Made by a program: the position numbers and the translations under genes. A stretch of DNA of 64,000 nucleotides from Octopus sinensis (Eukaryota): the NCBI RefSeq assembly GCF_006345805.1, contig NW_021832828.1:62001-126000 (forward strand). The letters are read 5' to 3'. The notes beneath the pieces were generated by a model, which worked only from the letters and a program-made list of their open reading frames with translations, had not been told where the DNA came from and ran no database searches. Below, one piece after another: positions 7,723 to 53,172 of the stretch (the first letter of the stretch is position 1; each line of letters starts with the position of its first letter).

Positions 7723-10028
7723 GGCAGGTCGCACACATGCATTGTACAATCTACCTTTCACTCTGAGCGAGAGGCCCTTTCTCACCAGTAGGGGTAGAAG
7801 CTTTCTAAACTTTTCCCAAGTTATTCTTATTCTAGTGGTAACACTTTCTGAGTATCCACCCCCCACTACTAACTTGGTCACCTAGGTAGTGGAAGCTATC
7901 AACTACTTCTAGTTTCTCCACCTGGAGTGTGATGGAATCTGTTTTCTGAGCATGTGGTGTTTATTGCCCCTGTGCATCTGCTGCACATGAAAGTATCTTC
8001 TTGGTTAATTTTCCTTTGATATTGCTGCACCTCTTATGTGTCCATAGCTTACACTGGGTACATCTTATGGAGTTTCTACCTACACCTTTTCTACACATCG
8101 AGCAGGGTCACCTACCTGAGGGAGTGTGTGATGTGTTTGCCTTCCTACTTACTAGAACTTTGGTTTTTGCTACATTGACTCTAAGGCCTTTTGATTCTAA
8201 ACCTTGCTTCCGCACCCAAAATTTCTTTCCTAGTTCTGGTAGTGATTCTGCTATGATGGCCAGGTCATCAGCATAGAGGAGCTCCCAGGGGCAACCCGTC
8301 TTGAATTCCTCTGTTATTGCCTGGAGGACTATGATGAATAAAAGAGGACTGAGGGCTGAACCTAATGGACCCCTACTTCTACCCGGAATTCTTCACTATA
8401 CTCATTGCCAATCCTAAACTTACTAACGGCATCTCTGTATAGGGCCTGTACAGCCCTTATTAACCATTCGTCAATCCCCAGTTTCTGCATCGCCCACCAG
8501 ATAAGGGATCGGAGGACCCTGTCAAAGGCTTTCTCCAAGTCCATAAAAGCTATGTATAGGGGTTTATCTTTAGCTAGGTATTTTTCCTGCAGTTGTCGAA
8601 CCAGGAATATGGCATCAGTGTTGCTTCTACCCAGCACAAAACCGAACTGCATCTCATCTAAGCAGACTCTCTCCTTAATGAAATGGGCTATGACCCTCTC
8701 CATGACCTTAATCACCTGATCCAGCAATTTGATACCCCTGTAGTTATTTCTGTCTAGAGCATCACCTTTACCCTTGCAGCAGTTGACAATGGTGCTGCTA
8801 CGCCAGTCATTGGGTATGACTCCATCATGAACTACCTGGTTTACAATGCAGATGACTTGGCCATAGCCCACATTACCAGATATTTTAAGCATCTCAGCAG
8901 TGATTTCTGATGGTCCAGGGGATTTTCCTGGCTTCATACCCTTAATTGCTTTATCTACAAGGGAGCTGTCTTTTCAGATAGCTGGTCCCTTTACTGCGTC
9001 AACATTTGGCAGGCTCTCTTCCTCCCATTCATTCTCCACTTTCTGCAATCTTTCATAATGGATTCTCCAAACATCTTTCTTTTCCGAATCATTAAAAGCA
9101 AGTGCACCATCATCCATGCGGACACATTTCTCTCTTGTGACATCACAATTTTCTCTCACACACTGTCTTGCAATCCGAAATACCTCAGTTATTTGGTCCT
9201 CACGTCACTGGACATTGGCAAACTTCTTTTCTGCTTTACCCTAGGCTATGTATACCTGCCACCCAGCCTCCCTTTTGGCTACCTGGTACAGTTCCCTACT
9301 ACCCCCACCTTTCCAGACCTGTTTCTTTGCTCTAATGGCTTTGTCTACCATACTATTCCACCACCACATAACTCTAGGTCGGGAAGGGACTTCTCTGTGG
9401 CTGGTGACTTCAATGGGCATGTTGAACAATGGCATACATGGGGGCTATAGTTTTGGTTCCCGCAATGAGGAGGGAACCAGGATGCTGGAGTTCTGTGATG
9501 CAAATGACCTCATGGTTTGTAATACTAACTTCAGGAAACCTGCCAGTCACCTACCGATCTGGTAGACACACTAGTCAAATTGACTACATCTTCACTAGGA
9601 AACAGGAAAGATGGCTACTTATAAATGCCAAAATCTTCCCAGGTGAAGAATGCACTCCACAACATAGTTTAGTAGTTGGGGACTTCAAGATCAGGGCTAA
9701 ATGGATGACCAGCATGGAAGAGAAGGGTGTGGAAGCTTAAGGATCCTGTGAATGGACAGAGATTCAGAGACATATTACTCAAAGCTTTTGACAAAATAGA
9801 GGGGGATATAGCATCACATGATGTGGAAGACAACTACAGGTTTCTACGGGACAACCCGTTGAGGGCCACTGACCAGAGCTGTGGATGGTGCAAAGTCCCC
9901 AAGGTAACGTGGTTGTGGAACCTGTCTCCTAGCTTCCCTTCTGGCAGTCTGATACAATTCCCTGCTACCTCCGTTCTTCCAGTCCTTCCATGCCTGTTTC
10001 TTTTTCCTAGTGGCCCTGTCAACAACAT
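7723..10028. mobile_element. Rearranged RTE-clade LINE with an internal inversion, same family as the 50-kb copy
   Basis: RT on minus at 7723-9392; endonuclease end (AGDFNGHV, SQIDYI, QHSLVV) on plus at about 9393-9921; a short minus fragment at about 9922-10028. Confidence 0.85.
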
Positions 10029-18010: not shown

Positions 18011-20662
18011 TATTTCTTTATTCACCATACGGTTATACATATAAAGACAGAACATCACGAATGATTTTACGTGAATATGCGTTGGGGTCTATTAAAAATT
18101 TACAAATGATTATATAATTCGGATGATAGGACATTTTTTACACAAACAATTTCACAGATGGAGTGGGGCGGGCTTACGAACCCTGCCACGACACTAACCT
18201 TAGGTTTTTTTTTCCGGCTTACCTCGCATTCATGAGGGTCCTTTTACTCACAACATTCTTCCATCTTTCATCGAACACTTTCTTACTCAGGCCCCTCCTC
18301 TCTAGTTCTATTTGTCTTTTTAGGTGGAATTTAAAATATTCCACCAGACCAGAACCAGAGATGAAGTTGCCTGCTATCACCCCTTTCATCCTCGTCTTCC
18401 ATACTGCCTGTTTCGCAATTGAAACCACAGAGAGAAAACAATTCTTACCTTCTTTCGTTAAGAAATCCGGTGGGTCAATTTTTACAATGGATTCAGTCGA
18501 TAGCTGTACTCCTCCTCCACTTGACAACAGTTGTTCGGCAAAAACCCACATGTCTGCCACCTCCGAGCACTGCACGACCGCGTGCGAGACGGTTTCCCTG
18601 TCTCGCCCACACCTCGGACAGGTCGGGCTGACTTGGCCACCGTGCCTTGCGAGTTTATCCCGAACAGGTAAGGCTCCTCGGTAACACTGCCAAGCTAAAG
18701 ACTTCTGAAAATTATCCAGGGTCCTCGGCCCAAATGTACGTTGGAACAGACTGGCCAGCTGATTATCGTCGAAACCTAGGGTTTCCCCTAATGTATCATC
18801 GCAACCGGCCTCTACAAACCCTCTATAGAAAACAGCGGTAGAACCACTGCCGTGGGAATTGCCCGAGTGACGGAATAGTCGGAGTGCCTTGCGACACTCC
18901 GTATACCATGTATCCAACTTCGATCTGTGATTATACCAGGCTTCCTGTCCACCAAAACTGGTGAAATTGGGAAACATCTGTTTCGCCAACGGAGACCACA
19001 CCCGTTCACCATCCAGATGGAGCCACAGATGCCTTAACCTCAGCGCATTTCTGCGCATCATTAGCCACGGCATCCCTAGTCCACCCTTTAACGGCTTTTG
19101 ACAACAAACAGAGCGTCTCACAAGTGGTTTCGAGCTCTTCCACAAAAAGTGAAAGAGCTGTCTTTCCAACTTGGTCAACCACGAATCTGGGCAAGGCACG
19201 ACGGTAAGGCGGTAGGTGATCACCGATGCGATGAACACATTGGCTACCTCCGCCCTACCTTTCAGGGATAACCACCGCCAAGACCAGGTCTTGGCTACTG
19301 CAGCCACCCTGCTCGATACCTCGCTCCAGTTCTTCTCTATTTGGAGGTCTGGTCCGAACCAAACCCCGAGCAACTTAATCGAACCCTCCGTCCAACGTCC
19401 CACGACGCTGTCTGAAGGCATCGACTTGCCTCTCCAGGTGCCGAGCTGCAAGCTGACTGACTTTTCGCGATTAACTTTTGCTCCTGTCACTGTCTCGTAA
19501 ACCTCTATGGCCTTGCCTACTTTACGTAGGAGGTCCACTTCAGTCACGATGATAGTGATGTCATCTGCGTACGCCGAAACCGACATTCCACGACCTGGCT
19601 GCCTCGGGATGCCACTCAGTTTTCGCAGCAGCGGCTCAAGAGCCACTACATACAAAAGCGGGGAGAGTGGGCATCCTTGACGAACCGAGCATTTGACTCT
19701 GAACGGCTTAGAAATAAAGCCGTTCACCCGAACTACCGAGTCGACGTTATCGTACATTTCGATGATCCACCTGAGGAAGCCAAGACCCAGGCCGAACTGA
19801 GCCAGAACAGACACCAGGTAATGATGGTCGACCCTATCGAAAGCTTTTGATTGGTCTAAATGGACCACTGCCCCTCCCTTGCCGGGATCGCTATTAATTC
19901 CCTCAATAGTGTATCTAATTAGATGGAGATTATCCTGAATGGACCTGCCAGTACGGCACACGTTTGTGCCTTCCCTATTAGTCCATCCGCGACACGCGCC
20001 AATCTGTTTGATAACACTTTGGCCAAAATCTTCAGCTCTGCGTTAAGCAGAGTGATGGGCCTAAAATTATCAATGACATCCCCCTTGTCCGAGTCCTTCC
20101 TGATTAGTGTCACCACTCCCCGGCGCACAGATCTGGGAATAAACCCATTCTGCTGCCAGTTCGCGTAGATGTTCGCCAGTAAGTCCCCGAACAAGTCCGG
20201 CATACTTTTATAAAGCTCGTAAGGTAGACCATCCAGTCCTGGCGCCTTACCCACGCCGCAGTTAGCCAGGGCCTCTATTACTTCCCCAGGCATGATCGGC
20301 TCCTCACTACACTTCGCGTCCTGCTCCGAGAGGCGCGGCAGCCCGTCGAGGAGGTCCGTTAGGCCCCTCCTCCTATCCGGTCCGCCGCTTCCCCCAAAGA
20401 GCTGGGCGAAGTGGTCCTGAAAAGCCTCACACATCTCCTTGGGCTCGTTTATCAACTTACCTTGTTGGTTCGTCAAAGATCGAATTGTGGCATCGTTGCC
20501 ACGTTGGGCTTCCACCACTCGGGCCCATCTCGCGGCATTAATTCCTTCGCTCCCCATTGCACGTTGTCTAGCCCTGACAATGCAACCCATTTGTTTGGCT
20601 TCGAGGTGCTGGTTCAAAACCAGTCTCTTGACCTTCACCTGGGCTGCCGTGCCAGTTCGCAT
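18011..20662 (-). mobile_element. 5'-truncated Tx1/L1-clade non-LTR retrotransposon (ORF2: RT and C-terminal zinc finger)
   Basis: ORFs 19919-20662 and 18219-19961 are separated by one frameshift. Motifs: PGLDG, FRPITLLN, KAFD, QGCPLSP, YADD and CPRC..H..C. AATAAA near the 3' end. 15-bp TSD tgattcgactagtct at 17996-18010 and 20663-20677. Confidence 0.92.
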
Positions 20663-32330: not shown

Positions 32331-32369
<39 letters not shown>

Positions 32370-32488
32370 ACAATCAAGGAACGGCCATAATAGGCCATTC
32401 ACCCACTAGAAATAACAGCCAAAGCTTCAACCGCAAATAAAAGTCAATTCCGTAAACAGGAGAAAATTTAAAAAAACATTACCCTGTA

Positions 32489-32595
32489 ATTTCTTATACG
32501 ATGCACCGTTTCGTCTGCTGTTTAATGGTAAACTAACCTGATTAAATTAAATCAAGCCAATCTTCCATAGGCCCTCAGATTCTTCAGTAAGAAAT
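32489..32595 (-). ncRNA. Type I hammerhead ribozyme, copy 1
   Basis: Minus strand reads AUUUCUUA-CUGAAGA-AUCUG...CAGAC-GAAAC-GGUGCAUC-GUA|UAAGAAAU. Stem I is a perfect 8 bp. Predicted cleavage between 32497 and 32496. Confidence 0.85.
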
Positions 32596-32979
32596 AGCCA
32601 CAAGTCGGAACAGATATTTTCACGAGGCATTTCCGACCCTGCCAAGTTATATCTGACCTAAAATTTTCAAATCATCGCACTCGCGCCAAATTTATCGGCA
32701 GCAAATAAATATAAGCCGTCGATTCCATTACGGAATTAACCAGAAAATTCATAATTAATCAATATAGGGTGCCAGAAAAAATTTTGTAGAATTTTTTTGC
32801 CACCAGCGGCCTAGTGGGGAAAAGATTAAATAGTCATATACCATTTTTAAGTTCAACATCAACAATCAAGGAACGGCCATAATAGGCCATTCACCCACTA
32901 GAAATAACAGCCAAGCTTCAACCGCAAATAAAAGTCAATTCCGTAAACAGGAGAAAATTTAAAAAACATTTACCCTGTA

Positions 32980-33086
32980 ATTTCTTATACGATGCACCGT
33001 TTCGTCTGCTGTTTAATGGTAAACTAACCTGATTAAATTAAATCAAGCCAATCTTCCATAGGCCCTCAGATTCTTCAGTAAGAAAT
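32980..33086 (-). ncRNA. Type I hammerhead ribozyme, copy 2
   Basis: Same motif as copy 1. Confidence 0.85.
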
Positions 33087-33469
33087 AGCCAAGTCGGAAC
33101 AGATATTTTCACGAGGCATTTCCGACCCTGCCAAGTTAATATCTGACCTAAAATTTTCAAATCATCGCACTAGCGCCAAATTTATCGGCAGCAAATAAAT
33201 ATAAGCCGTCGATTCCATTACGGAATTAACCAGAAAATTCATAATTAATCAATATAGGGTGCCAAAAAAAATTTTGCAGAATTTTTTTGCCACCAGCGGC
33301 CTAGTGGGAAAAAATTAAATAGTCATATACCATTTTTAAGTTCAACATCAACAATCAAGGAACGGCCATAATAGGCCATTCACCCACTAGAAATAACAGC
33401 CAAAGCTTCAACCGCAAATAAAAGTCAATTCCGTAAACAGGAGAAAATTTAAAAAAACATTACCCTGTA

Positions 33470-33576
33470 ATTTCTTATACGATGCACCGTTTCGTCTGCT
33501 GTTTAATGGTAAACTAACCTGATTAAATTAAATCAAGCCAATCTTCCATAGGCCCTCAGATTCTTCAGTAAGAAAT
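33470..33576 (-). ncRNA. Type I hammerhead ribozyme, copy 3
   Basis: Same motif as copy 1. Confidence 0.85.
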
Positions 33577-33959
33577 AGCCACAAGTCGGAACAGATATTT
33601 TCACGAGGCATTTCCGACCCTGCCAAGTTAATATCTGACCTAAAATTTTCAAATCATCGCACTCGCGCCAAATTATCGGCAGCAAATAAATATAAGCCGT
33701 CGATTCCATTACGGAATTAACCAGAAAATTCATAATTAATCAATATAGGGTGCCAAAAAAAATTTTGCAGAATTTTTTTGCCACCAGCGGCCTAGTGGGA
33801 AAAAATTAAATAGTCATATACCATTTTTAAGTTCAACATCAACAATCAAGGAACGGCCATAATAGGCCATTCACCCACTAGAAATAACAGCCAAAGCTTC
33901 AACCGCAAATAAAAGTCAATTCCGTAACAGGAGAAAATTTAAAAAACATTTACCCTGTA

Positions 33960-34066
33960 ATTTCTTATACGATGCACCGTTTCGTCTGCTGTTTAATGGT
34001 AAACTAACCTGATTAAATTAAATCAAGCCAATCTTCCATAGGCCCTCAGATTCTTCAGTAAGAAAT
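33960..34066 (-). ncRNA. Type I hammerhead ribozyme, copy 4
   Basis: Same motif as copy 1. Confidence 0.85.
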
Positions 34067-34451
34067 AGCCACAAGTCGGAACAGATATTTTCACGAGGCA
34101 TTTCCGACCCTGCCAAGTTAATATCTGACCTAAAATTTTCAAATCATCGCACTCGCGCCAAATTTATCGGCAGCAAATAAATATAAGCCGTCGATTCCAT
34201 TACGGAATTAACCAGAAAATTCATAATTAATCAATATAGGGTGCCAAAAAAAATTTTGTAGAATTTTTTTGCCACCAGCGGCCTAGTGGGAAAAAATTAA
34301 ATAGTCATATACCATTTTTAAGTTCAACATCAACAATCAAGGAACGGCCATAATAGGCCATTCACCCACTAGAAATAACAGCCAAAGCTTCAACCGCAAA
34401 TAAAAGTCAATTCCGTAAACAGGAGAAAATTTAAAAAACATTTACCCTGTA

Positions 34452-34558
34452 ATTTCTTATACGATGCACCGTTTCGTCTGCTGTTTAATGGTAAACTAAC
34501 CTGATTAAATTAAATCAAGCCAATCTTCCATAGGCCCTCAGATTCTTCAGTAAGAAAT
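34452..34558 (-). ncRNA. Type I hammerhead ribozyme, copy 5
   Basis: Same motif as copy 1. A sixth, truncated copy (3' half only) lies at 34943-34973. Confidence 0.85.
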
Positions 34559-34970
34559 AGCCACAAGTCGGAACAGATATTTTCACGAGGCATTTCCGAC
34601 CCTGCCAAGTTAATATCTGACCTAAAATTTTCAAATCATCGCACTCGCGCCAAATTTATCGGCAGCAAATAAATATAAGCCGTCGATTCCATTACGGAAT
34701 TAACCAGAAAATTCATAATTAATCAATATAGGGTGCCAAAAAAAATTTTGCAGAATTTTTTTGCCACCAGCGGCCTAGTGGGAAAAAATTAAATAGTCAT
34801 ATACCATTTTTAAGTTCAACATCAACAATCAAGGAACGGCCATAATAGGCCATTCACCCACTAGAAATAACAGCCAAAGCTTCAACCGCAAATAAAAGTC
34901 AATTCCGTAAACAGGAGAAAATTTAAAAACATTTACCCTGTAATTTCTTATACGATGCACCGTTTCGTCT

Positions 34971-34997
34971 GCTACTTACCACACAGCCACTCCTGCA

Positions 34998-35063
<66 letters not shown>

Positions 35064-35090
35064 TGCAGGAGTGGCTGTGTGGTAAGTAGC
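34971..35090. repeat. Perfect 120-bp palindrome at the array junction
   Basis: 30-bp arm gctacttacc...gcacct, then (AT)30, then the exact reverse complement of the arm, which is the start of the adjacent SINE. Confidence 0.95.
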
Positions 35091-37519: not shown

Positions 37520-37559
<40 letters not shown>

Positions 37560-37632
37560 GTAAATGTAAAAAAATACAAACTGGGACAAGAACGTGAAAC
37601 ATTTAGAAGACGATACAAAAAACACGGACGGG

Positions 37633-37778
37633 ACATTCAAAGCCTTCAATCTTCAGTCAAGAACCGGATCATCTTCGCAATTTTGGCTGATTAATCTTGA
37701 GATTGTTCCAATCTGGCCAGCCCCAAAGGAAAATCTAAGCCAAGCGCATTAGATTCCTTGGAAGAAAGCCTCGAATGT
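37633..37778 (-). ncRNA. Permuted hammerhead-like structured RNA, element A (within a repeat at about 37560-38240)
   Basis: Order is CAAUC|UCAAGA...CAGCC-AAAA-UUG...UCUUGA-CUGAAGA, with a 15-bp closing stem. The stems covary with element B. Confidence 0.6.
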
Positions 37779-39448
37779 ATACAAAACAAGGGCAGAAAAC
37801 CGGACGATGTTACACGAATAAAAATATAAAAATACGTAAAAACAATAATGATAACATGAATAAGAATACAAAAATATGTAAAAACAATAATGATAATAAT
37901 AATAACAACAAAAACAGGACGTCACAGACAAGTGTCTTTTCGACAGGACAAGTAAATTTTTGAGCTGGCGTTAGAAAAAAGCCTTAGGGCAAGAGAGAGA
38001 AAAAAAATGTGTCTTGCCACAACGGCTGCTGACCACGAAGAGGCTAGCAATCAGTGGCTAGTCACGTGTGAGGGAAAGAGAGAGGAAAAGAGGGACAGAT
38101 GAAGAGAGAAAGAAGGGGAACAAGGAACAAAGGAGGAGGGGAATAGAGAGAGAGAGAGAAAGAGACAGATCAAAGTGGAGTGCAAAGTGTGAAAGGCAGA
38201 AAAATGTAGGAGAGGGAGGAAAGAGAGTGTTGTAGAGTCGTATATATGTATGTGTGTATGTATGTAAAATATGAAGGGCTTCTTTCAGTTTCTGCCTTTC
38301 AAATTCATTCCCATGGCTTTGGTCAGCCTTGGGCTATAGCAGAAGATATTCAAGGCGCTGCATAGTAGGTCTGAACCCAGGATCACATGGTTGGGAAGCA
38401 AGTTTCATAAGCAGCCCACCCCTTGAGAAAGAGAAAGAAAAATAAATTACTAAAGAGGTAGTAGACTTGCAAAACCTGTCTTTTTGGGGTTGTTTTCTAT
38501 TAGTGAAAAAGCAAAGAAAAAAATTTAACATTCTTTGGGTAAATTGTTAAGTTGTTGAATGTTTCAACATTTTGAAGTGTAAACAGCTGAATATATAGTA
38601 TATTTTAATAAAAATAGAATTACACACAAGCTAAACTTCCTTGAGCAGGTGAAAAGTTTTAATGGCTAAGGTAAAGACAGCCTGGTAGTGCAGGATGTAA
38701 CAAGAATTTTTCACATTCCATCAATGGATAAAAATGTTTAATGGCTACATAAATGTGTGTGTATGTGTGTATATCTGTATAGGCACACACACACACATAT
38801 ATAAATAAATCCTCTCTACTATAGCCACAAGGCCTGAAATTTCAGGGGGTGGGGACTAGTCAATTATATCGACCTTACTATTTTATTTGTTTCATTCATT
38901 TGACTGCAGCCATGACCCCATGACTCATTCTTTGTAAGCCTAGTACTTATTCTATCGGTCTCTTGCCGAACCGCTAAGTTATAGGGATGTAAACATACCA
39001 GCATCGGTTGTCAAGCAATGGTGGTGGGGGCAAACACACACACACAACGGGCTTCTTTCAGTTTCCATCTACCAAATCCACTCACAAGGCTTTGGTTGGC
39101 CCAAGGCTATAGTAGAAGACACTTGTCCAAGGTGCCATGCAGTTGGACTGAATCTGGAACCATGTGGTTGGTAAGCAAGCCACTTACCATACGGCCACTC
39201 CTGTGCCTATATCTGCATAAAAAGCATCCAGTACACTTTGTAAAATGGTTAGCATTGGGAAGGACATCCAGCCATAGAAACCATGCCAAATCAGACAAAC
39301 CATCATCCTCCTCATCATCATTTAACATTCGTTTTCCATGCTGGCAAGCCAGAGGGCTGCACTAGGTTCTATTTATGCTTGGTTTCTACAACTGGATGCC
39401 TATCCCAATGCCAATCACATTGCAGATTGTACTAGGTGCTTTTTATGC

Positions 39449-41510: not shown

Positions 41511-41743
41511 GCACACACATTTGCAAATACACATACACACATACATATAAACTCATACATACACATATTTATGCATGTATATATGTATGTATAAGTGAAT
41601 GTATACGCGTGTGTATATATGTTCTGTTTTGATTATATATATGAACCAAGGATAGGACAGAAAGAACATGACAAAAACAACACACAGAAAAATAGACGAT
41701 AACATAACAAACAGGAAACTGGACAAAACCAAGAAACATGGCC

Positions 41744-41886
41744 CATTCGCAGCATATTTCCTCATCAGTCAGAGTCTGGAAGATCTTCATGGTTTTGCAC
41801 ATTTTTATCCCTGAGACCACTTGAATCCAGCAAGTGCCAGAGCGTTAAGCTAAAAGCATTAAGCTTCTGGGGAAAGCAAGCGATTG
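41744..41886 (-). ncRNA. Permuted hammerhead-like structured RNA, element B (within a repeat at about 41640-42480)
   Basis: Order is GUGGUC|UCAGGG...GUGC-AAAA-CCAU...CUCUGA-CUGAUGA. Same architecture as element A with different stem sequences. Confidence 0.6.
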
Positions 41887-43858
41887 TATACAAGAATGAA
41901 AACAAGAACAAGAAAGCAAGAATTATATGCATACAACAGACAAACGCCTTCTTGCTATACCACAAAATGAAAATAATTGTACATTTACAAATGAATAAAT
42001 AACAGAAAGTGTCTTTTGACTATTAGATGAACAAACATGATGAAATAATAATACAAGTGCAACAGAAAAGGAATTAGACATATAGAATGGACAAACGCCT
42101 TTTGGCTATAAATAACAAAATGAAAATTGTACAATTATGACATAAATAACAAAAAGGGATCTTTTGTCTATCAGATGAATGTAGTAAGGATGGTGTGAAG
42201 GAGAAATGGGAGGTCTTAACAGACCAAGCAAGAGGATGGACAAACATGACTGCTGGTCAGAAAAGGGCGGACAGCAATCATGTGGTAGGAGAGGGTAAGA
42301 GTTGTAGAGGGCAGAGGGATTAAAGAATTAGAGGGAGGGGAGGAAAGAGGGACTAAGGAATAAGAGAGAGGGGAAAAGAGATCAAAGGGACTAAAGAATG
42401 AGAGGGAGGGGAAGAGAGAGAGAGAGAGAGAGAAAGGTATAAAGGAGACAACTGAAGAAGGAAAGCAGAGGGAGGAGATATATATTGCATGCACCTTCTA
42501 CTATACCTTCAATGAAAATGTTGTGAATGGATATGGTAGAGTGAAAGTGAAACTGAAAGAAGTGCATTGTATATATGTATCTGTGTCTGCATACGTCTTG
42601 TCTTTACATTGCACACTGTACCTTTTCACTGTGGTCATCCATGGGAGTTGATAAAATAAAGCATCAATCTTCTACTGGAATTGACTCTATAATTGACTCT
42701 TCATCACCCGACAAATTGTGTCTGAGTTAGAAATTATTATTATTATTAGTGATTTCTTATATAAATACAAAATTTCAAATTCAAGTCATGGGCTAAAGTC
42801 AGTTATATCGATCTTGATTTTATTGCCACTAGAAGGATGGATGGCTCAGTGGTTAGAGCATCGGGCTCACAGTCATGAGGTCATAAGTTTGATTCCTGGA
42901 TCAGGCTGTGTGTTGTGTTCTTGACCAAGACACTTTATTTAATGTTGCTCCAGTTCACTCAGCTGTAAAAATGAGTTGTGACATCACTGGTGCCATACTG
43001 TATCAGTCTTTGCCTTTCCCTTCGATAACATTGATGGTGTGGAGAGGAGAGGCTGGTCTTCCATATATAACCTTGCCTGAACTTGTGTCTTGGAGGGTAA
43101 CTTTCTATGTGCAATCCTATGGTCATTCATGACTGAAAGTGGTCTTTACTCTTGACTTGACTTTACTCTAGAAAGATGGAAGGTGAAGTTAAGCTTGGTA
43201 GGAGTTGAACTCAGAACATAATGAACTCAAATGAAATATTACAAGATATTTGTTTACAGCTCTTAATAGTTCTGCCAGCTTGCTGCTGTTTTTGCCAAAA
43301 TTCAGTTAAATTTGTGAGATGTTTTTCAGTAGGAGTCTGGTTAGTTGTACATGTTTGCTGCAGGACAATTTAATTAGCTGAGACTAGTGTTGCTTCTTAA
43401 TTGCAGTATTTTCTTTTCTTAGAAGGAAGGGGAAGGGTTTCAATTTGCATGATCTAATTAGGTGGAAGTAAAGTCCTGGAGATAATTAACAAATGTTGTT
43501 TGGTTAGAATATGGTAGAAAAGAAATTTAATGGAAAAACTCAGTCTTTGTTGATGTTTGGCAGTTCTAATAAGGCATAAATTATTTAAGCATGACAATTT
43601 GAAAGGAAGTTACTTTGAAATGAGGAGTTGTAAGGAGCAAAGATTTTAGTAAGAGCAATATTTTAGAGTAGGATAACTAGATTCATATGATTTGGATAAT
43701 CTTTGGCTCAGGTGTGGCTGTTTGATGAGAAGTTTCCTTCTTAACCACATGGTTCCAGGTTCAGTCCCACTGTATGACACCTTTGGCAGTTGTCTTCTAC
43801 TTGGACTGACAAAGACCTTATGAACGGATTTGGTAGGCAGAAACTGAAAGAAGCTTGT

Positions 43859-48800: not shown

Positions 48801-50330
48801 TAGGTGAAGCTCTCTAGTCCTGTGAAGCAATGCACCAAGGAGAAGGCCACTCCAGCTTCCTGGTCACTACAGCTGTCTTAACCTGTTGAGTGACTGTGGT
48901 CAGACCCACAAGTCTAAAGGATGGGGGTCAGATTGCATAGGTTCACTCACACTTTAACCTTTTAACATTTAAATCAGCCATATCTGTCCCAAATATTCTG
49001 TCTGTTTTATGTTGGAACTGGCTATATTTCAGTCTCTCACACCTACCATATAATGTCATTTTAAAAATAAATAATTACATCATTGAAATTTCAACACAAA
49101 AGATAATGCAAATAAATAAGCATTTACATTGAACAAAATAATCCAAATGTTAAAGGGTTAAAACTACTAAGTGCAGGCAGGAAAACCTCTGCAGTATCAA
49201 GGATCAGTTTGCATAGCCACATGAAAGAGTGCCACTCTTTCATGTGGTCTTCAGTCATGATGAAATTGCCATCATGTTTCTGTTTGTTACAATCTGTTTT
49301 GTTGTTGAGTATCAAAAATAGAGGCATTTTATCTGGTAGTGATGTGACCCTCTGAGTGTTCTCATTAAATTTGCTGAGTTAATTGCCCCAACATTATGTA
49401 ATATCCGTTGTTAGTCTCACACCTGACAAAGAAAGAGGTGAAGGTTCAATTCTGGAGGGATGGCTGCTGATTATACCAATTGTGCTGGTGTCACATAAAA
49501 AGCACCCAACACAGTCTGTAAAACGGTTGGTGTTAGGAAGGGCATCCAGCTGTAGAAACCAAGCCAAAACAGACTAAAGAACCTGGCGTGGACCCAGCTA
49601 TTTAACCCATGTCAGCATGGAAAATGGATGTTAAATGCCAATGAATGATGATGATGTAATCTTTCTATTTTTGGCACCAGGCTAACAATTTTGAGGGTAA
49701 GGCGCAAGTCAATTACATTGACCATTCCCACTTCCCTGGACAATTGACTGGTACTTAATTTTTTTTGACTCCATAAAGATGAAAGGCAAAGTTCTCTGTG
49801 GCAGTATTTGAAATCAACTATAAAGAGCTGGAAGAAATGAAGCATTTTGTTCGACATGCAAACAGTTCTACCAACTTGTTAACTGACAGTAAAACACAAG
49901 CAAGTATTTGACAACTTCTCATCCTTCCTTGAGAGTATATTACCTTGAACATACACATCTTGAATATTCAAGAGACATCTTTAGGTCTAGTTATTGTGGC
50001 TTTGCAAGGACAAGTTTTTTTTATTTCTATCTGTAAAATACACGTGAAAAGTTTATGAAAAATTCACGTTGTTTCTGATGTAATTTTGTTTATGGCAACT
50101 GTCAGAAATTTTGGTTAGATTGTTGGAACTCTGCATTTCTGAAATTCCATCCCTGAAACACAAATATGCCACATTTTTATATATATATATATTAAACTGA
50201 ATTTTGAAGCTAGTTTTAGGGTAGCTACTGGACATGACTGACAGATTTATTGTAAAGTTTGTGTCGACTGAGACTTTACTATAAGAAAAAGTGTACATAT
50301 GTGTATGTGTGTGTATTTATATATATATAT

Positions 50331-53172
50331 ACTGGACACTTCTGACAACTGGACGCTTCTAAGGGACAACCTGCTGAAAGCTACTGACCAGATCTGTGGC
50401 TGGTGCAAAGTCCCCTCAAGACCCAAAATAACATGGTGGTGGAACAATATTGTTGACAGGGCTATTAGACAAAAGAAACAGGCTTGGAAGGACTGGAAGA
50501 ACGGTGGTAGCAGGGAAGTGTATCAGACTGCCAGAAGGGAAGCTAGGAGGCAGGTGTATTTAGCCAGAGGGGAAGCAGATAAGAAAAAACTTGCCAATGT
50601 TCTGCGCTGTGAGGATGAAAGACTTGAGGTATTTCGTGTTGCAAGACAGTGTGTGAGAGAGAATCATGACGTGGTAGGAGAGAAATGTGTTCGCAAGGAT
50701 GTCGGTTCACTTGCGCTAAATGAGGATGCAAAGAGAGAGGTTTGGAGACGCCACTATGAAAGGTTGCTGAATGAGGAAAATGAATGGGATAAAGAGAGTC
50801 TGCCGAATGTCGACCCAACAGAGGGACCAGCAATCCGAGTTAACAGTTCCTTAGTAGTTAAGGCAATTACAAGCATGAAAACAGGGAAAGCCCCAGGCCC
50901 ATCAGGAATTACTGCAGAGATGCTCAAAATATCTGGTAGTGTCGGCTATAGCCTAGTCACCCGTATAGTTAACCAGGTGATACACGAAGGAGTCATACCC
51001 AATGACTGGTGTAGCAGCATAATAGTCAACTGCTACAAAGGTAAAGGTGACGCCCTAGATACAAATAATTACAGGGGTATCAAGCTGCTGGATCAGGTAA
51101 TGAAGGTTACGGAGAGGGTTATAGCCCAACTAATTAGAGAGAGAGTTAGCTTAGACGAGATGCAGTTTGGGTTCGTGCCAGGGAAAAGTACTACTGATGC
51201 TATATTCCTGGTAAGACAGCTGCAGGAGAAATACCTAGCCAAAGATAAGCCCCTGTACCTGGCTTTTGTTGACATGGAGAAAGCCTTCGACAGGGTCCCC
51301 CAATCCCTTATCTGGTGGTCAATGAGGAAACTAGGGATAGATGAATGGTTAGTGAGAGCTGTGTGAGCCATGTACAGAGACGCTGCTAGTAAGGTGAGGG
51401 TTGGCAACGAGTACAGTGAAGAATTCCGGGTAGAGGTTGGCGTCCACCAAGGTTCAGTCCTCAGTCCCCTCCTATTTATCATAGTCCTCCAGGCAATAAC
51501 GGAGGAATTCAAGACAAGATGCCCCTGGGAGCTCCTCTATGCTGATGACCTTGCTCTAATTGCTGAGTCACTATCAGAACTGGAGAAGTTTCAGGTGTGG
51601 AATCAAGGTTTAGAATCGAAGGGCCTTAGAATCAACCTAGCCAAAACCAAAGTCCTAATAAGTAGGAAGGTAGACCAATCACAAACGCCTTCAGGTAGAT
51701 GGCCCTGCTCGATCTGTAAATAAGGCGTAGGTAGAAACTCTATAAGGTGCACCAAGTGTAAGCTATGGACACATAAGAGGTGTAGCAATGTCAAAGGAAG
51801 GCTAACTAGGAAAATAGTTTTTGTCTGTGGCAGATACTCAGGAGCAATAAACACTGAAAATGTGCAGAGACCAACTTCTACCACGTTCCAGGGAGAAAAA
51901 CTAGAAGTAGTTGATAGCTTCCGCTACCTAGGTGACCAAGTCAGTAGTGGGGGTGGGTGTGCTGAAAGTGTAACTGCTAGAGTAAGGATAGCCTGGGCAA
52001 AGTTTAGAGAGCTCTTACCCCTGCTGGTGACAAAAGGCCTCTCGCTCAGAGTAAAAGGCAGACTGTATGATGCATGTGTACGTACAGCCATGCTACATGG
52101 TAGTGAAACATGGGCTGTGACTGCTGAGGATATGCGTAAGCTCGCAAGAAATGAAGCCAGTATGCTCCGATGGATGTGTAATGTCAGTGTTCATAATCGA
52201 CAGAGTGTAAATACCTTGAGAGAAAAGTTGGACCTAAGAAGCATCAGTTTTGGTGTGCAAGAGAGACGTTTGCGCTGGTATGGTCATGTGACGAGAATAG
52301 CTGAAGATAGTTGTGTGCAAAAGTGCCACACCCTAGCAGTTGACGGAACCTGTGGACGAGGTGGTGAAGCACGACCTTCGAACTCTAGATCTCACCAGAG
52401 AAATGACTAGAGACCGAGACCTATGGAAGTATGCTGTGCACGAGAAGACCCGGCAAGACTAGTGAGACCATAACCCGTGGCCTCTACCTGGTATGTAGCC
52501 AGTTGACTTATACATACCTTTCCTTCTTGGGACACAAAACTCCACTTGTGAAGACCCGTTGAGGCAAGTGAAAATCAAAATCGAAATCAAACAAATCAAA
52601 TCAGATATCAGAAAGCAGAACCAAAATCGAAGTCGATCAACATCAATGGAAATTGCAGCTGTGATACCAGTGCCGGTGACAAGTAAGCGAACCATCCGAT
52701 TGTGGCCGTTGCCAGCTCCGCCCCGACTGGCCTCCGTGCCAGTGGCATGTAAAAAGCACCATCCGTTTGTAGCCGTTGCCAGCCTCGCCTGGCCCCCGTG
52801 CCGGTGGCACGTAAAAAGCACCATTCGTTCGTGGCCGTTGCCAGCCCCGCCTGGCCCCCGTGCCGGTGGCACGTAAAAAGCACCATCCAATCATGGCTGT
52901 TGCCAGCCTCGCCTGGCCCCCGTGCCGGTGGCACGTAAAAAGCACCATCCGTCCGTGGCCGTTTGCCAGCTCCGTCTGGCACCTGTGCGGGCAGCACGTA
53001 AAAAGCACCCACTACACTCACGGAGTGGTTGGCGTTAGGAAGGGCATCCAGCCATAGAAACACTGCCAGATCAGACTGGGCCTGATGCAGCCTTCTGGCT
53101 TCACAGACCCCAGTTGAACCGTCCAACCCATGCTAGCATGGAAAGCGGACGCTAAATGATGATGATGATGAT
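50331..53172 (+). mobile_element. 5'-truncated RTE-clade LINE with disrupted RT, a 3' UTR minisatellite and a (GAT)n tail
   Basis: Motifs NYRGIKLL, QFGF, KAFD, QGSVLSP, YADD, FRYLG, HGSETW and RLRWYGHV. In-frame stops at 51364 and 51721 and a frameshift near 51860. Confidence 0.9.

What the first reader, a model, noticed from the sequence alone, without database searches (positions are those of the whole stretch)
41744..41886. Element B: a diverged sequence with the same permuted fold, giving covariation in every stem
Seen, B versus A: stem I UCAGGG/CUCUGA vs UCAAGA/UCUUGA; stem III GUGGU/ACCAU vs CAAU/AUUG; distal stem III CUGGA/UCCAG vs AUUGGA/UCCGGU; stem II GCAC/GUGC vs GGCUGG/UCAGCC; outer stem UUUCC/GGAAA. 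CUGANGA, the NUC triplet, C-AAAA and a GAAGAU bulge are conserved. Compensatory changes across two subfamilies argue for a real conserved RNA. Both elements have similar low-complexity flanks and lie beside TA tracts, like Penelope pseudo-LTRs. Both have A at position 12, so a natural core variant is also possible.
Basis: partly seen in the sequence, partly recalled or inferred. Interest (0 to 1): 0.75.

Follow-up and report, generated by a model that had tools for sequence, protein, structure and literature searches.

The report
Split-core scrambled hammerhead, decayed copy
This stretch is a worn copy of a jumping repeat whose family carries a likely self-cutting hammerhead RNA with its parts in a scrambled order and its core opened at an unusual point; the same design ends Naiad retrotransposons reported to lack such an RNA, but cutting is untested.

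Summary
The stems are real. Element B (minus strand) is one old copy of a non-coding repeat family (at least 76 motif matches); element A is a young sister family (3,309). Across seven family consensuses, 110 of 112 positions of stems I-III pair; only the true matching of 5,040 permutations reaches this. Block order is site-GAAA-CUGAnGA (type SGC of Eckert 2023), but the 5' strand of stem II lies upstream, so A9 and G10.1 are not joined and an outer helix fills the gap. The A12 'variant' is CpG decay: families carry C-GAAA. The GAAGAU bulge is a kink-turn-like motif. The same fold follows Naiad-type RT remnants in this genome and, read by eye, ends several published Naiad consensuses described as lacking hammerheads; nematode Naiads carry type CSG. 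5' ends of insertions pile up just after the predicted cut (A: 28 of 83 at 0..+13, 3 at -14..-1; also in D, weakly in B), indirect support for cleavage. No ORF partner was found for A or B, and this copy is probably dead. The scan already reported this fold on other DNA of this and other genomes.

The parts
41643..42478 (-). Element B: 5'-truncated, non-coding repeat unit (family unit about 1.1-1.2 kb), flanked by short TA tracts
   Evidence: (78% match to unit of L019 over 42475-41673)
41870..41886 (-). Outer helix O, 5' strand
   Evidence: helices 1-3, 86-94% of cells paired
41838..41869 (-). Hairpin H between outer helix and stem II (absent in family D)
41832..41837 (-). Stem II 5' strand (10.x), placed upstream of the cleavage block; G41837 is the inferred G10.1
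   Evidence: helix 6, 91% paired; G in 7 of 7 families
41826..41830 (-).
41821..41822 (-). Non-bulged GA of the kink-turn-like motif; reads AA in this copy (CpG decay at 41822)
41809..41820 (-). Block S: stem III strand, GUC triplet, predicted cut between 41815 and 41814, stem I 3' strand
41789..41800 (-). Block G: stem II 3' strand, GAAA (here AAAA; G12A at 41796 by CpG decay), stem III strand
41784..41788 (-). 3-nt bulge plus GA of the kink-turn-like motif
41776..41780 (-). Helix X 3' strand
41762..41774 (-). Block C without its stem II strand: stem I 5' strand plus CUGAUGA
41744..41761 (-). Outer helix O, 3' strand, starting right after A9
37552..38242 (-). Element A: copy of a young sister family (unit about 0.77-0.85 kb); ribozyme 37778-37633, predicted cut 37701/37700, also G12A by CpG decay

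Best explanation
Element B is a decayed copy of a non-coding, TA-targeting, Penelope-like repeat whose 3' end carries a likely self-cleaving hammerhead with blocks in the order site-GAAA-CUGAnGA and with stem II's 5' strand supplied from upstream, so that the core is predicted to be open between A9 and G10.1. Shown: the repeat family, the pairings, the intact family core, the CpG decay, the TA ends, the partial tandems and the pile-up of insertion 5' ends. Inferred mechanism: the RNA enters at G10.1 and leaves at A9 through an outer helix (plus an optional hairpin) that stacks at the gap. Helix X ties the distal ends of stems I and II, and a kink-turn-like bend folds it back onto stem III. Cleavage after the NUH triplet cuts read-through or tandem transcripts into unit RNAs. 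An RT-endonuclease of an autonomous Penelope-like element (Naiad-type most likely) copies them into (TA)n tracts; linear cut RNAs give copies starting just after the cut, and partly cut or circularised RNAs give partial tandems. The window copy, with G12A and a broken kink-turn GA among 17 changes from its subfamily consensus, is probably inactive.
For: Family: 41 matches at 73-100%, 76 motif matches against 0 control. Pairing within B: 87.6% of cells paired, 19 pairs changed on both sides, above all 500 shuffles and far above slid controls. Across 7 family consensuses: 110 of 112 positions paired, 1 of 5,040 permutations reaches it; CUGAnGA and NUH in 7 of 7, C-GAAA in 6 of 7. The base after A9 is G, U or A by family, while the upstream 10.1 base is G in 7 of 7. 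Chance: 2 sites in the window against 1 in 500 shuffles. 5' ends: A 28 of 83 at 0..+13 against 3 at -14..-1 (binomial p 5e-5; largest 14-nt window in 5,000 simulations 17); D 13 of 30 at +2..+33 and none at -25..+1; B 5 independent events at +2..+14 and none at -14..-1 among 39 aligned. Same fold 1-2 kb downstream of RT remnants on the same strand and at the end of published Naiad consensuses (read by eye). TA tract within 260 nt: A 33 of 33, D 32 of 32, N 19 of 20, B 16 of 31, random stretches 759 of 1,600.
Against: No cleavage assay and no raw RNA reads. In the reviewed alignments CUGAnGA is never more than 1-2 nt from stem II (PMC10085705), so a gap at A9/G10.1 may impair catalysis. No ORF-bearing partner sharing A's, B's or D's 3' end was found among the loci L081-L146 around Naiad-type RT hits; Naiad RT copies here are decayed while A and D are young, so the mobilising enzyme is unidentified. 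The 5'-end pile-up spans 0 to +13 rather than one base and could reflect a start site or RT stalling. Families are related, so the permutation and shuffle tests overstate independence. B's own TA-end rate (16 of 31) is no higher than the random control. The GIY-YIG domain was not confirmed by Pfam in the decayed fragments scanned. Other-species Naiads were read by eye only.
Confidence: 0.75

Rival explanations
1. Contiguous-core variant: the base after A9 serves as position 10.1 (a one-pair or mismatched stem II) and the outer helix, hairpin and distal stem II form a four-way junction inside stem II. It would then be an ordinary type-SGC core with an elaborate stem II.
For: In B-type families G follows A9 and could pair with C11.1, giving a perfect four-helix junction (sequence). 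One-pair stems II and a U10.1-U11.1 start occur in natural hammerheads (PMC3088659 passages).
Against: The base after A9 is U in A and N and A in D, opposite an invariant C11.1, while the upstream G is kept in 7 of 7 families. D has no hairpin H.
Confidence: 0.12
2. A structural, non-catalytic element: a hammerhead-derived fold kept as an RT-binding, packaging or 3'-end signal. The 5'-end pile-up would come from an internal start site or from RT stalling at the pseudoknot.
For: Penelope-like elements have start sites inside pseudo-LTRs (PMC8557442 passages). Ends cluster at +9..+13, the start of the stem II 3' strand, as well as at 0..+7.
Against: All catalytic positions are kept across families whose stems differ. 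The edge of the pile-up coincides with the predicted cut in A and D. More AT-rich upstream windows show far fewer ends.
Confidence: 0.1
3. Natural A12 core variant.
For: Both window copies read C-AAAA.
Against: Family majorities read C-GAAA; CA and TG both occur, as CpG deamination on either strand predicts, at the rate of other CpG sites.
Confidence: 0.02
4. Chance pairing in a repeat with no RNA function.
For: The B copy folds no better than shuffles (z -0.15); only 5 of 29 B copies pass the relaxed descriptor.
Against: Cross-family covariation, descriptor rate 1 in 500 shuffles, all 19 young D copies tested pass the strict descriptor.
Confidence: 0.01

Closest known systems
Type-SGC and type-CSG hammerhead ribozymes (Eckert et al. 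2023, PMC10085705; seen: parts 3-5 of 8 and word searches, no supplements)
   Same: Same cyclic block order (site, GAAA, CUGAnGA), full core, short linker from stem I to stem II, and a helix that ties stems I and II.
   Different: There block C carries the stem II strand directly after CUGAnGA and the authors assume it cannot be interrupted; here the molecule opens between A9 and G10.1 with one or two inserted helices. Their examples were from metatranscriptomes and metagenomes, none from an animal genome; 'kink' and 'k-turn' do not occur in the main text.
Naiad Penelope-like retrotransposons (Craig et al. 2021, PMC8557442; seen: passages, File S1 sheet, one part of File S5, last ~330 nt of 53 of 54 consensuses)
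   Same: (TA)n targets, partial tandem pseudo-LTRs, short tail extensions; octopus Naiad consensuses end in the same fold, flagged there only as 'HHR_half_core' or not flagged.
   Different: Naiads encode GIY-YIG plus RT; A, B and D units are non-coding. The paper reports no canonical hammerhead in Naiads.
Non-LTR retrozymes (PMC7229834 passages; bioRxiv 10.64898/2026.07.22.740005 part 1 of 5 and passages)
   Same: Non-coding tandem units with one ribozyme each, regarded as non-autonomous Penelope-like derivatives.
   Different: Those carry type I hammerheads in units of about 300 bp; here units are 0.67-1.2 kb with a scrambled hammerhead; circular RNA not shown here.
Kink-turn motif (definition recalled, no call)
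   Same: 3-nt bulge followed by tandem G-A/A-G between two helices in families A, B, D and N.
   Different: Only the sequence signature was tested; by eye it is absent in the coral Naiad version and it is broken in the window copy.

Membership tests
Hammerhead ribozyme | CUGAnGA, GAAA and NUH core | tested here: met
   Family consensuses: CUGAnGA and NUH 7 of 7, C-GAAA 6 of 7, T-GAAA in the 4-copy family C. The window copy itself has G12A.
Hammerhead ribozyme | Stems I, II, III in register with the core and covarying | tested here: met
Hammerhead ribozyme | A9 joined to stem II within 0-2 nt | tested here: not met
   Stem II 5' strand lies about 20 nt upstream of U16.1; A9 leads into the outer helix. 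A one-pair alternative is possible only in B-type families.
Hammerhead ribozyme | Site-specific self-cleavage | not testable with these tools
   Indirect only: insertion 5' ends.
Type-SGC hammerhead | Block order S, G, C with short S-to-G linker | tested here: met
   Order and 2-7 nt linker in 7 families; definition.
Type-SGC hammerhead | Helix joining the other sides of stems I and II | tested here: met
   Helix X, 83% of cells paired with 3 pairs changed on both sides in B; present in A, D, N.
Type-SGC hammerhead | Block C intact (stem II strand after CUGAnGA) | tested here: not met
Naiad PLE (autonomous) | ORF with N-terminal GIY-YIG and RT | tested here: not met
   No ORF in A, B or D units. 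RT remnants precede family N only; GIY-YIG not confirmed there by Pfam.
Naiad PLE (autonomous) | (TA)n insertion bias | tested here: met
   A 33 of 33, D 32 of 32, N 19 of 20 against 47% control; B inconclusive at 16 of 31.
Naiad PLE (autonomous) | Partial tandem and inverted pseudo-LTR arrangements, short tail | tested here: met
Non-LTR retrozyme | Non-coding tandem unit with one ribozyme | tested here: met
Non-LTR retrozyme | Type I hammerhead | tested here: not met
Non-LTR retrozyme | Circular RNA intermediate | not testable with these tools
   Only assembled contigs were available.
Kink-turn | 3-nt bulge then G-A/A-G tandem between helices | tested here: met
   A: bulge letters vary while the following GA stays in nearly all copies; GA/GA in B 20 and 22 of 29, A 26 of 26, N non-bulged side 24 of 29. 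Geometry untested.

The most novel reading that the evidence does not exclude
Animal genomes hold thousands of copies of an active hammerhead whose catalytic core is discontinuous between A9 and G10.1, a seventh wiring outside the six-block scheme. With type-CSG forms in nematodes it makes scrambled hammerheads the ribozymes of many Naiad retrotransposons from ctenophores to cephalopods, processing their transposition RNAs.
Probability: 0.62. Interest if true: 0.85.

Novelty: new variant of a known kind. Interest (0 to 1): 0.74.

Why it matters
It would extend non-circularly permuted hammerheads from environmental RNA to animal genomes, break the assumption that CUGAnGA must be joined to stem II, and explain why Naiad elements seemed to lack a ribozyme: standard descriptors cannot see this strand order. 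Young families with intact cores (A, D) make cleavage, the role of the outer helix and kink-turn, and circular-RNA intermediates directly testable. Element B itself matters only as an old subfamily that adds covariation.

Tried and rejected
Rfam scan of the window: no ribozyme family among 63 matches to E 1, mostly microRNA models on TA repeats. CUGANGA alone is at chance level (35 against 29.5). Nested folding does not single out B. Search for an autonomous partner of A, B or D: loci L081-L146 around Naiad-type RT hits showed N-type ends or unlinked A-like insertions; an A-like piece 1.3 kb after an RT remnant in L134 is a separate truncated insertion; a young Neptune-like element has a minimal type I hammerhead and a different 3' end (by eye). 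A genome-wide covariance-model search could not be run on this genome, so further families may be missed. Sequencing runs: no RNA holder listed; contigs of 4 runs hold family A but cannot show ends. PMC10162972 passages gave nothing on extra helices. Snoring-out alternatives considered from sequence and rejected: C/D-box snoRNA or SECIS (no Rfam match; the GAAA, NUH and three stems in register are not explained), and a minimal type I hammerhead using the GAAA right after CUGAUGA (no stem I partner downstream; absent in A, D, N). Dropped rows: 1 of 84 A hits and 1 of 40 B hits did not align; A 'ends' near -151 and -521 are subfamily divergence or the reference limit and were not counted as ends; L179/L180 share a flank and were counted twice; three B rows share one flank and were counted once; 4 B copies could not be assigned to a subfamily.

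Full report
Observation. The finding lies on the minus strand. Every pairing named for B is present at the stated coordinates, and element A is at 37778-37633, also minus. CUGANGA alone is at chance level in the window and Rfam has no ribozyme match. A descriptor that demands core letters plus stems I, II, III and the extra helix finds exactly A and B in the window and one such site in 500 shuffled windows.

Both elements are repeats. B has 41 scored matches of 214 candidates at 73-100% identity in the 2.72-Gb own genome and 76 matches to a 22-nt motif against 0 control. A is young: 40 scored matches at 95-100% and 3,309 motif matches. Units are non-coding and CT-rich, about 0.77-0.85 kb (A) and 1.1-1.2 kb (B), and occur as 5'-truncated copies, partial tandems and inversions. 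A covariance model built from B alone finds A copies at E about 1e-8 to 1e-9. A further young family D (403 exact motif matches; 670-bp units; arrays of 8-9 units) turned up and was examined.

A12 is decay. Most copies read C-GAAA. The C11.1-G12 CpG is kept in 14 of 29 B copies and 19 of 26 A copies, within the range of other CpG sites, and both CA and TG products occur. In an A sample picked by a downstream motif it is CG in 57 of 64 readable copies. The window B copy differs from its subfamily consensus at 17 of 156 positions, five of them CpG-type, including G12A at 41796 and the kink-turn G at 41822. It is probably inactive (inference).

Architecture. The order is outer helix 5' strand, hairpin H, stem II 5' strand, helix X, block S, block G, helix X, block C, outer helix 3' strand. 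S-G-C is the type-SGC order of Eckert et al. 2023 (PMC10085705), and helix X joins the extensions of stems I and II as their interaction helix does. The difference is that the stem II strand does not follow CUGAnGA. In effect the SGC/CSG circle is opened between A9 and G10.1, a joint those authors treat as unbreakable. Within 28 B copies 87.6% of cells pair and 19 of 44 pairs change on both sides, above all 500 shuffles and above slid controls (relatedness and paired CpG decay inflate this). Across seven family consensuses (B1, B2, B3, C, A, D, N) 110 of 112 positions of stems I-III pair and only the true matching of 5,040 permutations reaches that. The upstream 10.1 base is G in all seven, while the base after A9 is G, U or A. 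D lacks hairpin H but keeps the outer helix. This lead came from earlier scan notes and was tested here.

Link to Naiads. Craig et al. 2021 (PMC8557442) report that Naiads lack canonical hammerheads but flag half cores, including two cephalopod families. The Naiad_Obim and Naiad_Ovul consensuses end in the same fold downstream of the ORF. A motif from it has 801 matches in this genome, and these N-type ends lie 1-2 kb downstream of decayed RT fragments on the same strand (weak RVT_1 at E about 1e-3). Reading the last ~330 nt of 53 of 54 consensuses by eye, the split form is recognisable in 9 (a ctenophore, three corals, two other cnidarians in part, two octopuses, one squid degenerate) and an intact type-CSG hammerhead in 6 nematode families; the other 38 showed none that I could read. 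These readings were not computed. For A, B and D no ORF-bearing partner was found, so their filing as non-autonomous Naiad-type elements is inferred from shared fold, TA targets and tandem structure.

Indirect sign of cleavage. Of 83 aligned, 28 begin at 0..+13, 3 at -14..-1 and 5 at +14..+38: hazard 0.032 against 0.004 per nt, p 5e-5, and no 14-nt window above 17 in 5,000 simulations; more AT-rich windows upstream have fewer ends. D repeats this (13 of 30 at +2..+33, none at -25..+1) and B agrees weakly (5 independent events at +2..+14, none at -14..-1, of 39). A start site or RT stalling could also produce this. No RNA reads could test ends.

Mechanism. Shown: repeat families, pairings, intact family cores, decay of this copy, TA ends, end pile-up. 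Inferred: the outer helix stacks at the A9/G10.1 gap, the kink-turn folds helix X back, the RNA cuts itself after NUH, and a Penelope-like RT-endonuclease copies linear or circular unit RNAs into TA tracts, as proposed for retrozymes (PMC7229834 passages; bioRxiv 10.64898/2026.07.22.740005). Main rivals: a one-pair stem II with a four-way junction (natural one-pair stems II exist, PMC3088659 passages), or a non-catalytic signal.

Novelty. Searches for 'non-circular permutation'+hammerhead, Penelope+hammerhead+octopus, Naiad+ribozyme, hammerhead+type-SGC, stem IV variants, kink-turn+hammerhead+retrotransposon and permuted+pseudoknot+Penelope found no description of this wiring or of scrambled hammerheads in animal retroelements; the library omits most subscription papers and the supplements of Eckert 2023 were not seen. 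The scan itself has reported the same fold on other DNA of this and other genomes; my reading of the fold and the Naiad link was recorded before that look-up. Verdict: a new variant of a known ribozyme class, well supported by comparison, untested at the bench, with element B as an old dead copy.

Noticed in passing
PMC8557442 File S5, 3' ends of Naiad-1/2/3_Nbra, Hcon, Hpol, Asuum: Nematode Naiads end in intact type-CSG hammerheads with a long stem I-II helix (read by eye); type CSG was known from two metagenomic sequences.
   Followed up: partly
PMC8557442 File S5, bivalve, hemichordate and two hydrozoan Naiad 3' ends: Two other conserved 3' motifs recur across these Naiads (one with GCTYACTC...CACCTG, one in mussels and clams); possibly other structured RNAs.
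   Followed up: no
L127:3120-3165 (minus) and L128:5060-5110: A young Neptune-like element (RT, linker, C-terminal GIY-YIG-like region) ends at a TA tract with a minimal type I hammerhead showing U3/A8 in place of C3/G8 (by eye).
   Followed up: partly
L168, L169: Family D forms arrays of 9 and 8 ribozyme-bearing units of about 670 bp.
   Followed up: partly
L164: A family D copy is inserted inside an older Penelope-like RT frame.
   Followed up: no
window 32366-34973: 491-bp tandem repeat, 5.3 copies, 98% alike; holds CTGAAGA on the minus strand but no hammerhead by the descriptor.
   Followed up: partly
window 18219-20042 (-), 50272-51366 (+), 8362-8973 (-): LINE-type RT frames (RVT_1; zf-RVT in the first), unrelated to A and B.
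   Followed up: partly
window 34971-35090: Perfect inverted repeat of a common short repeat end around a TA tract; gives spurious microRNA matches.
   Followed up: no
L066, L068, L079: Three of 20 N-family copies begin about 22 nt before the cut, at the start of the stem II 5' strand, the point where the core is opened.
   Followed up: no
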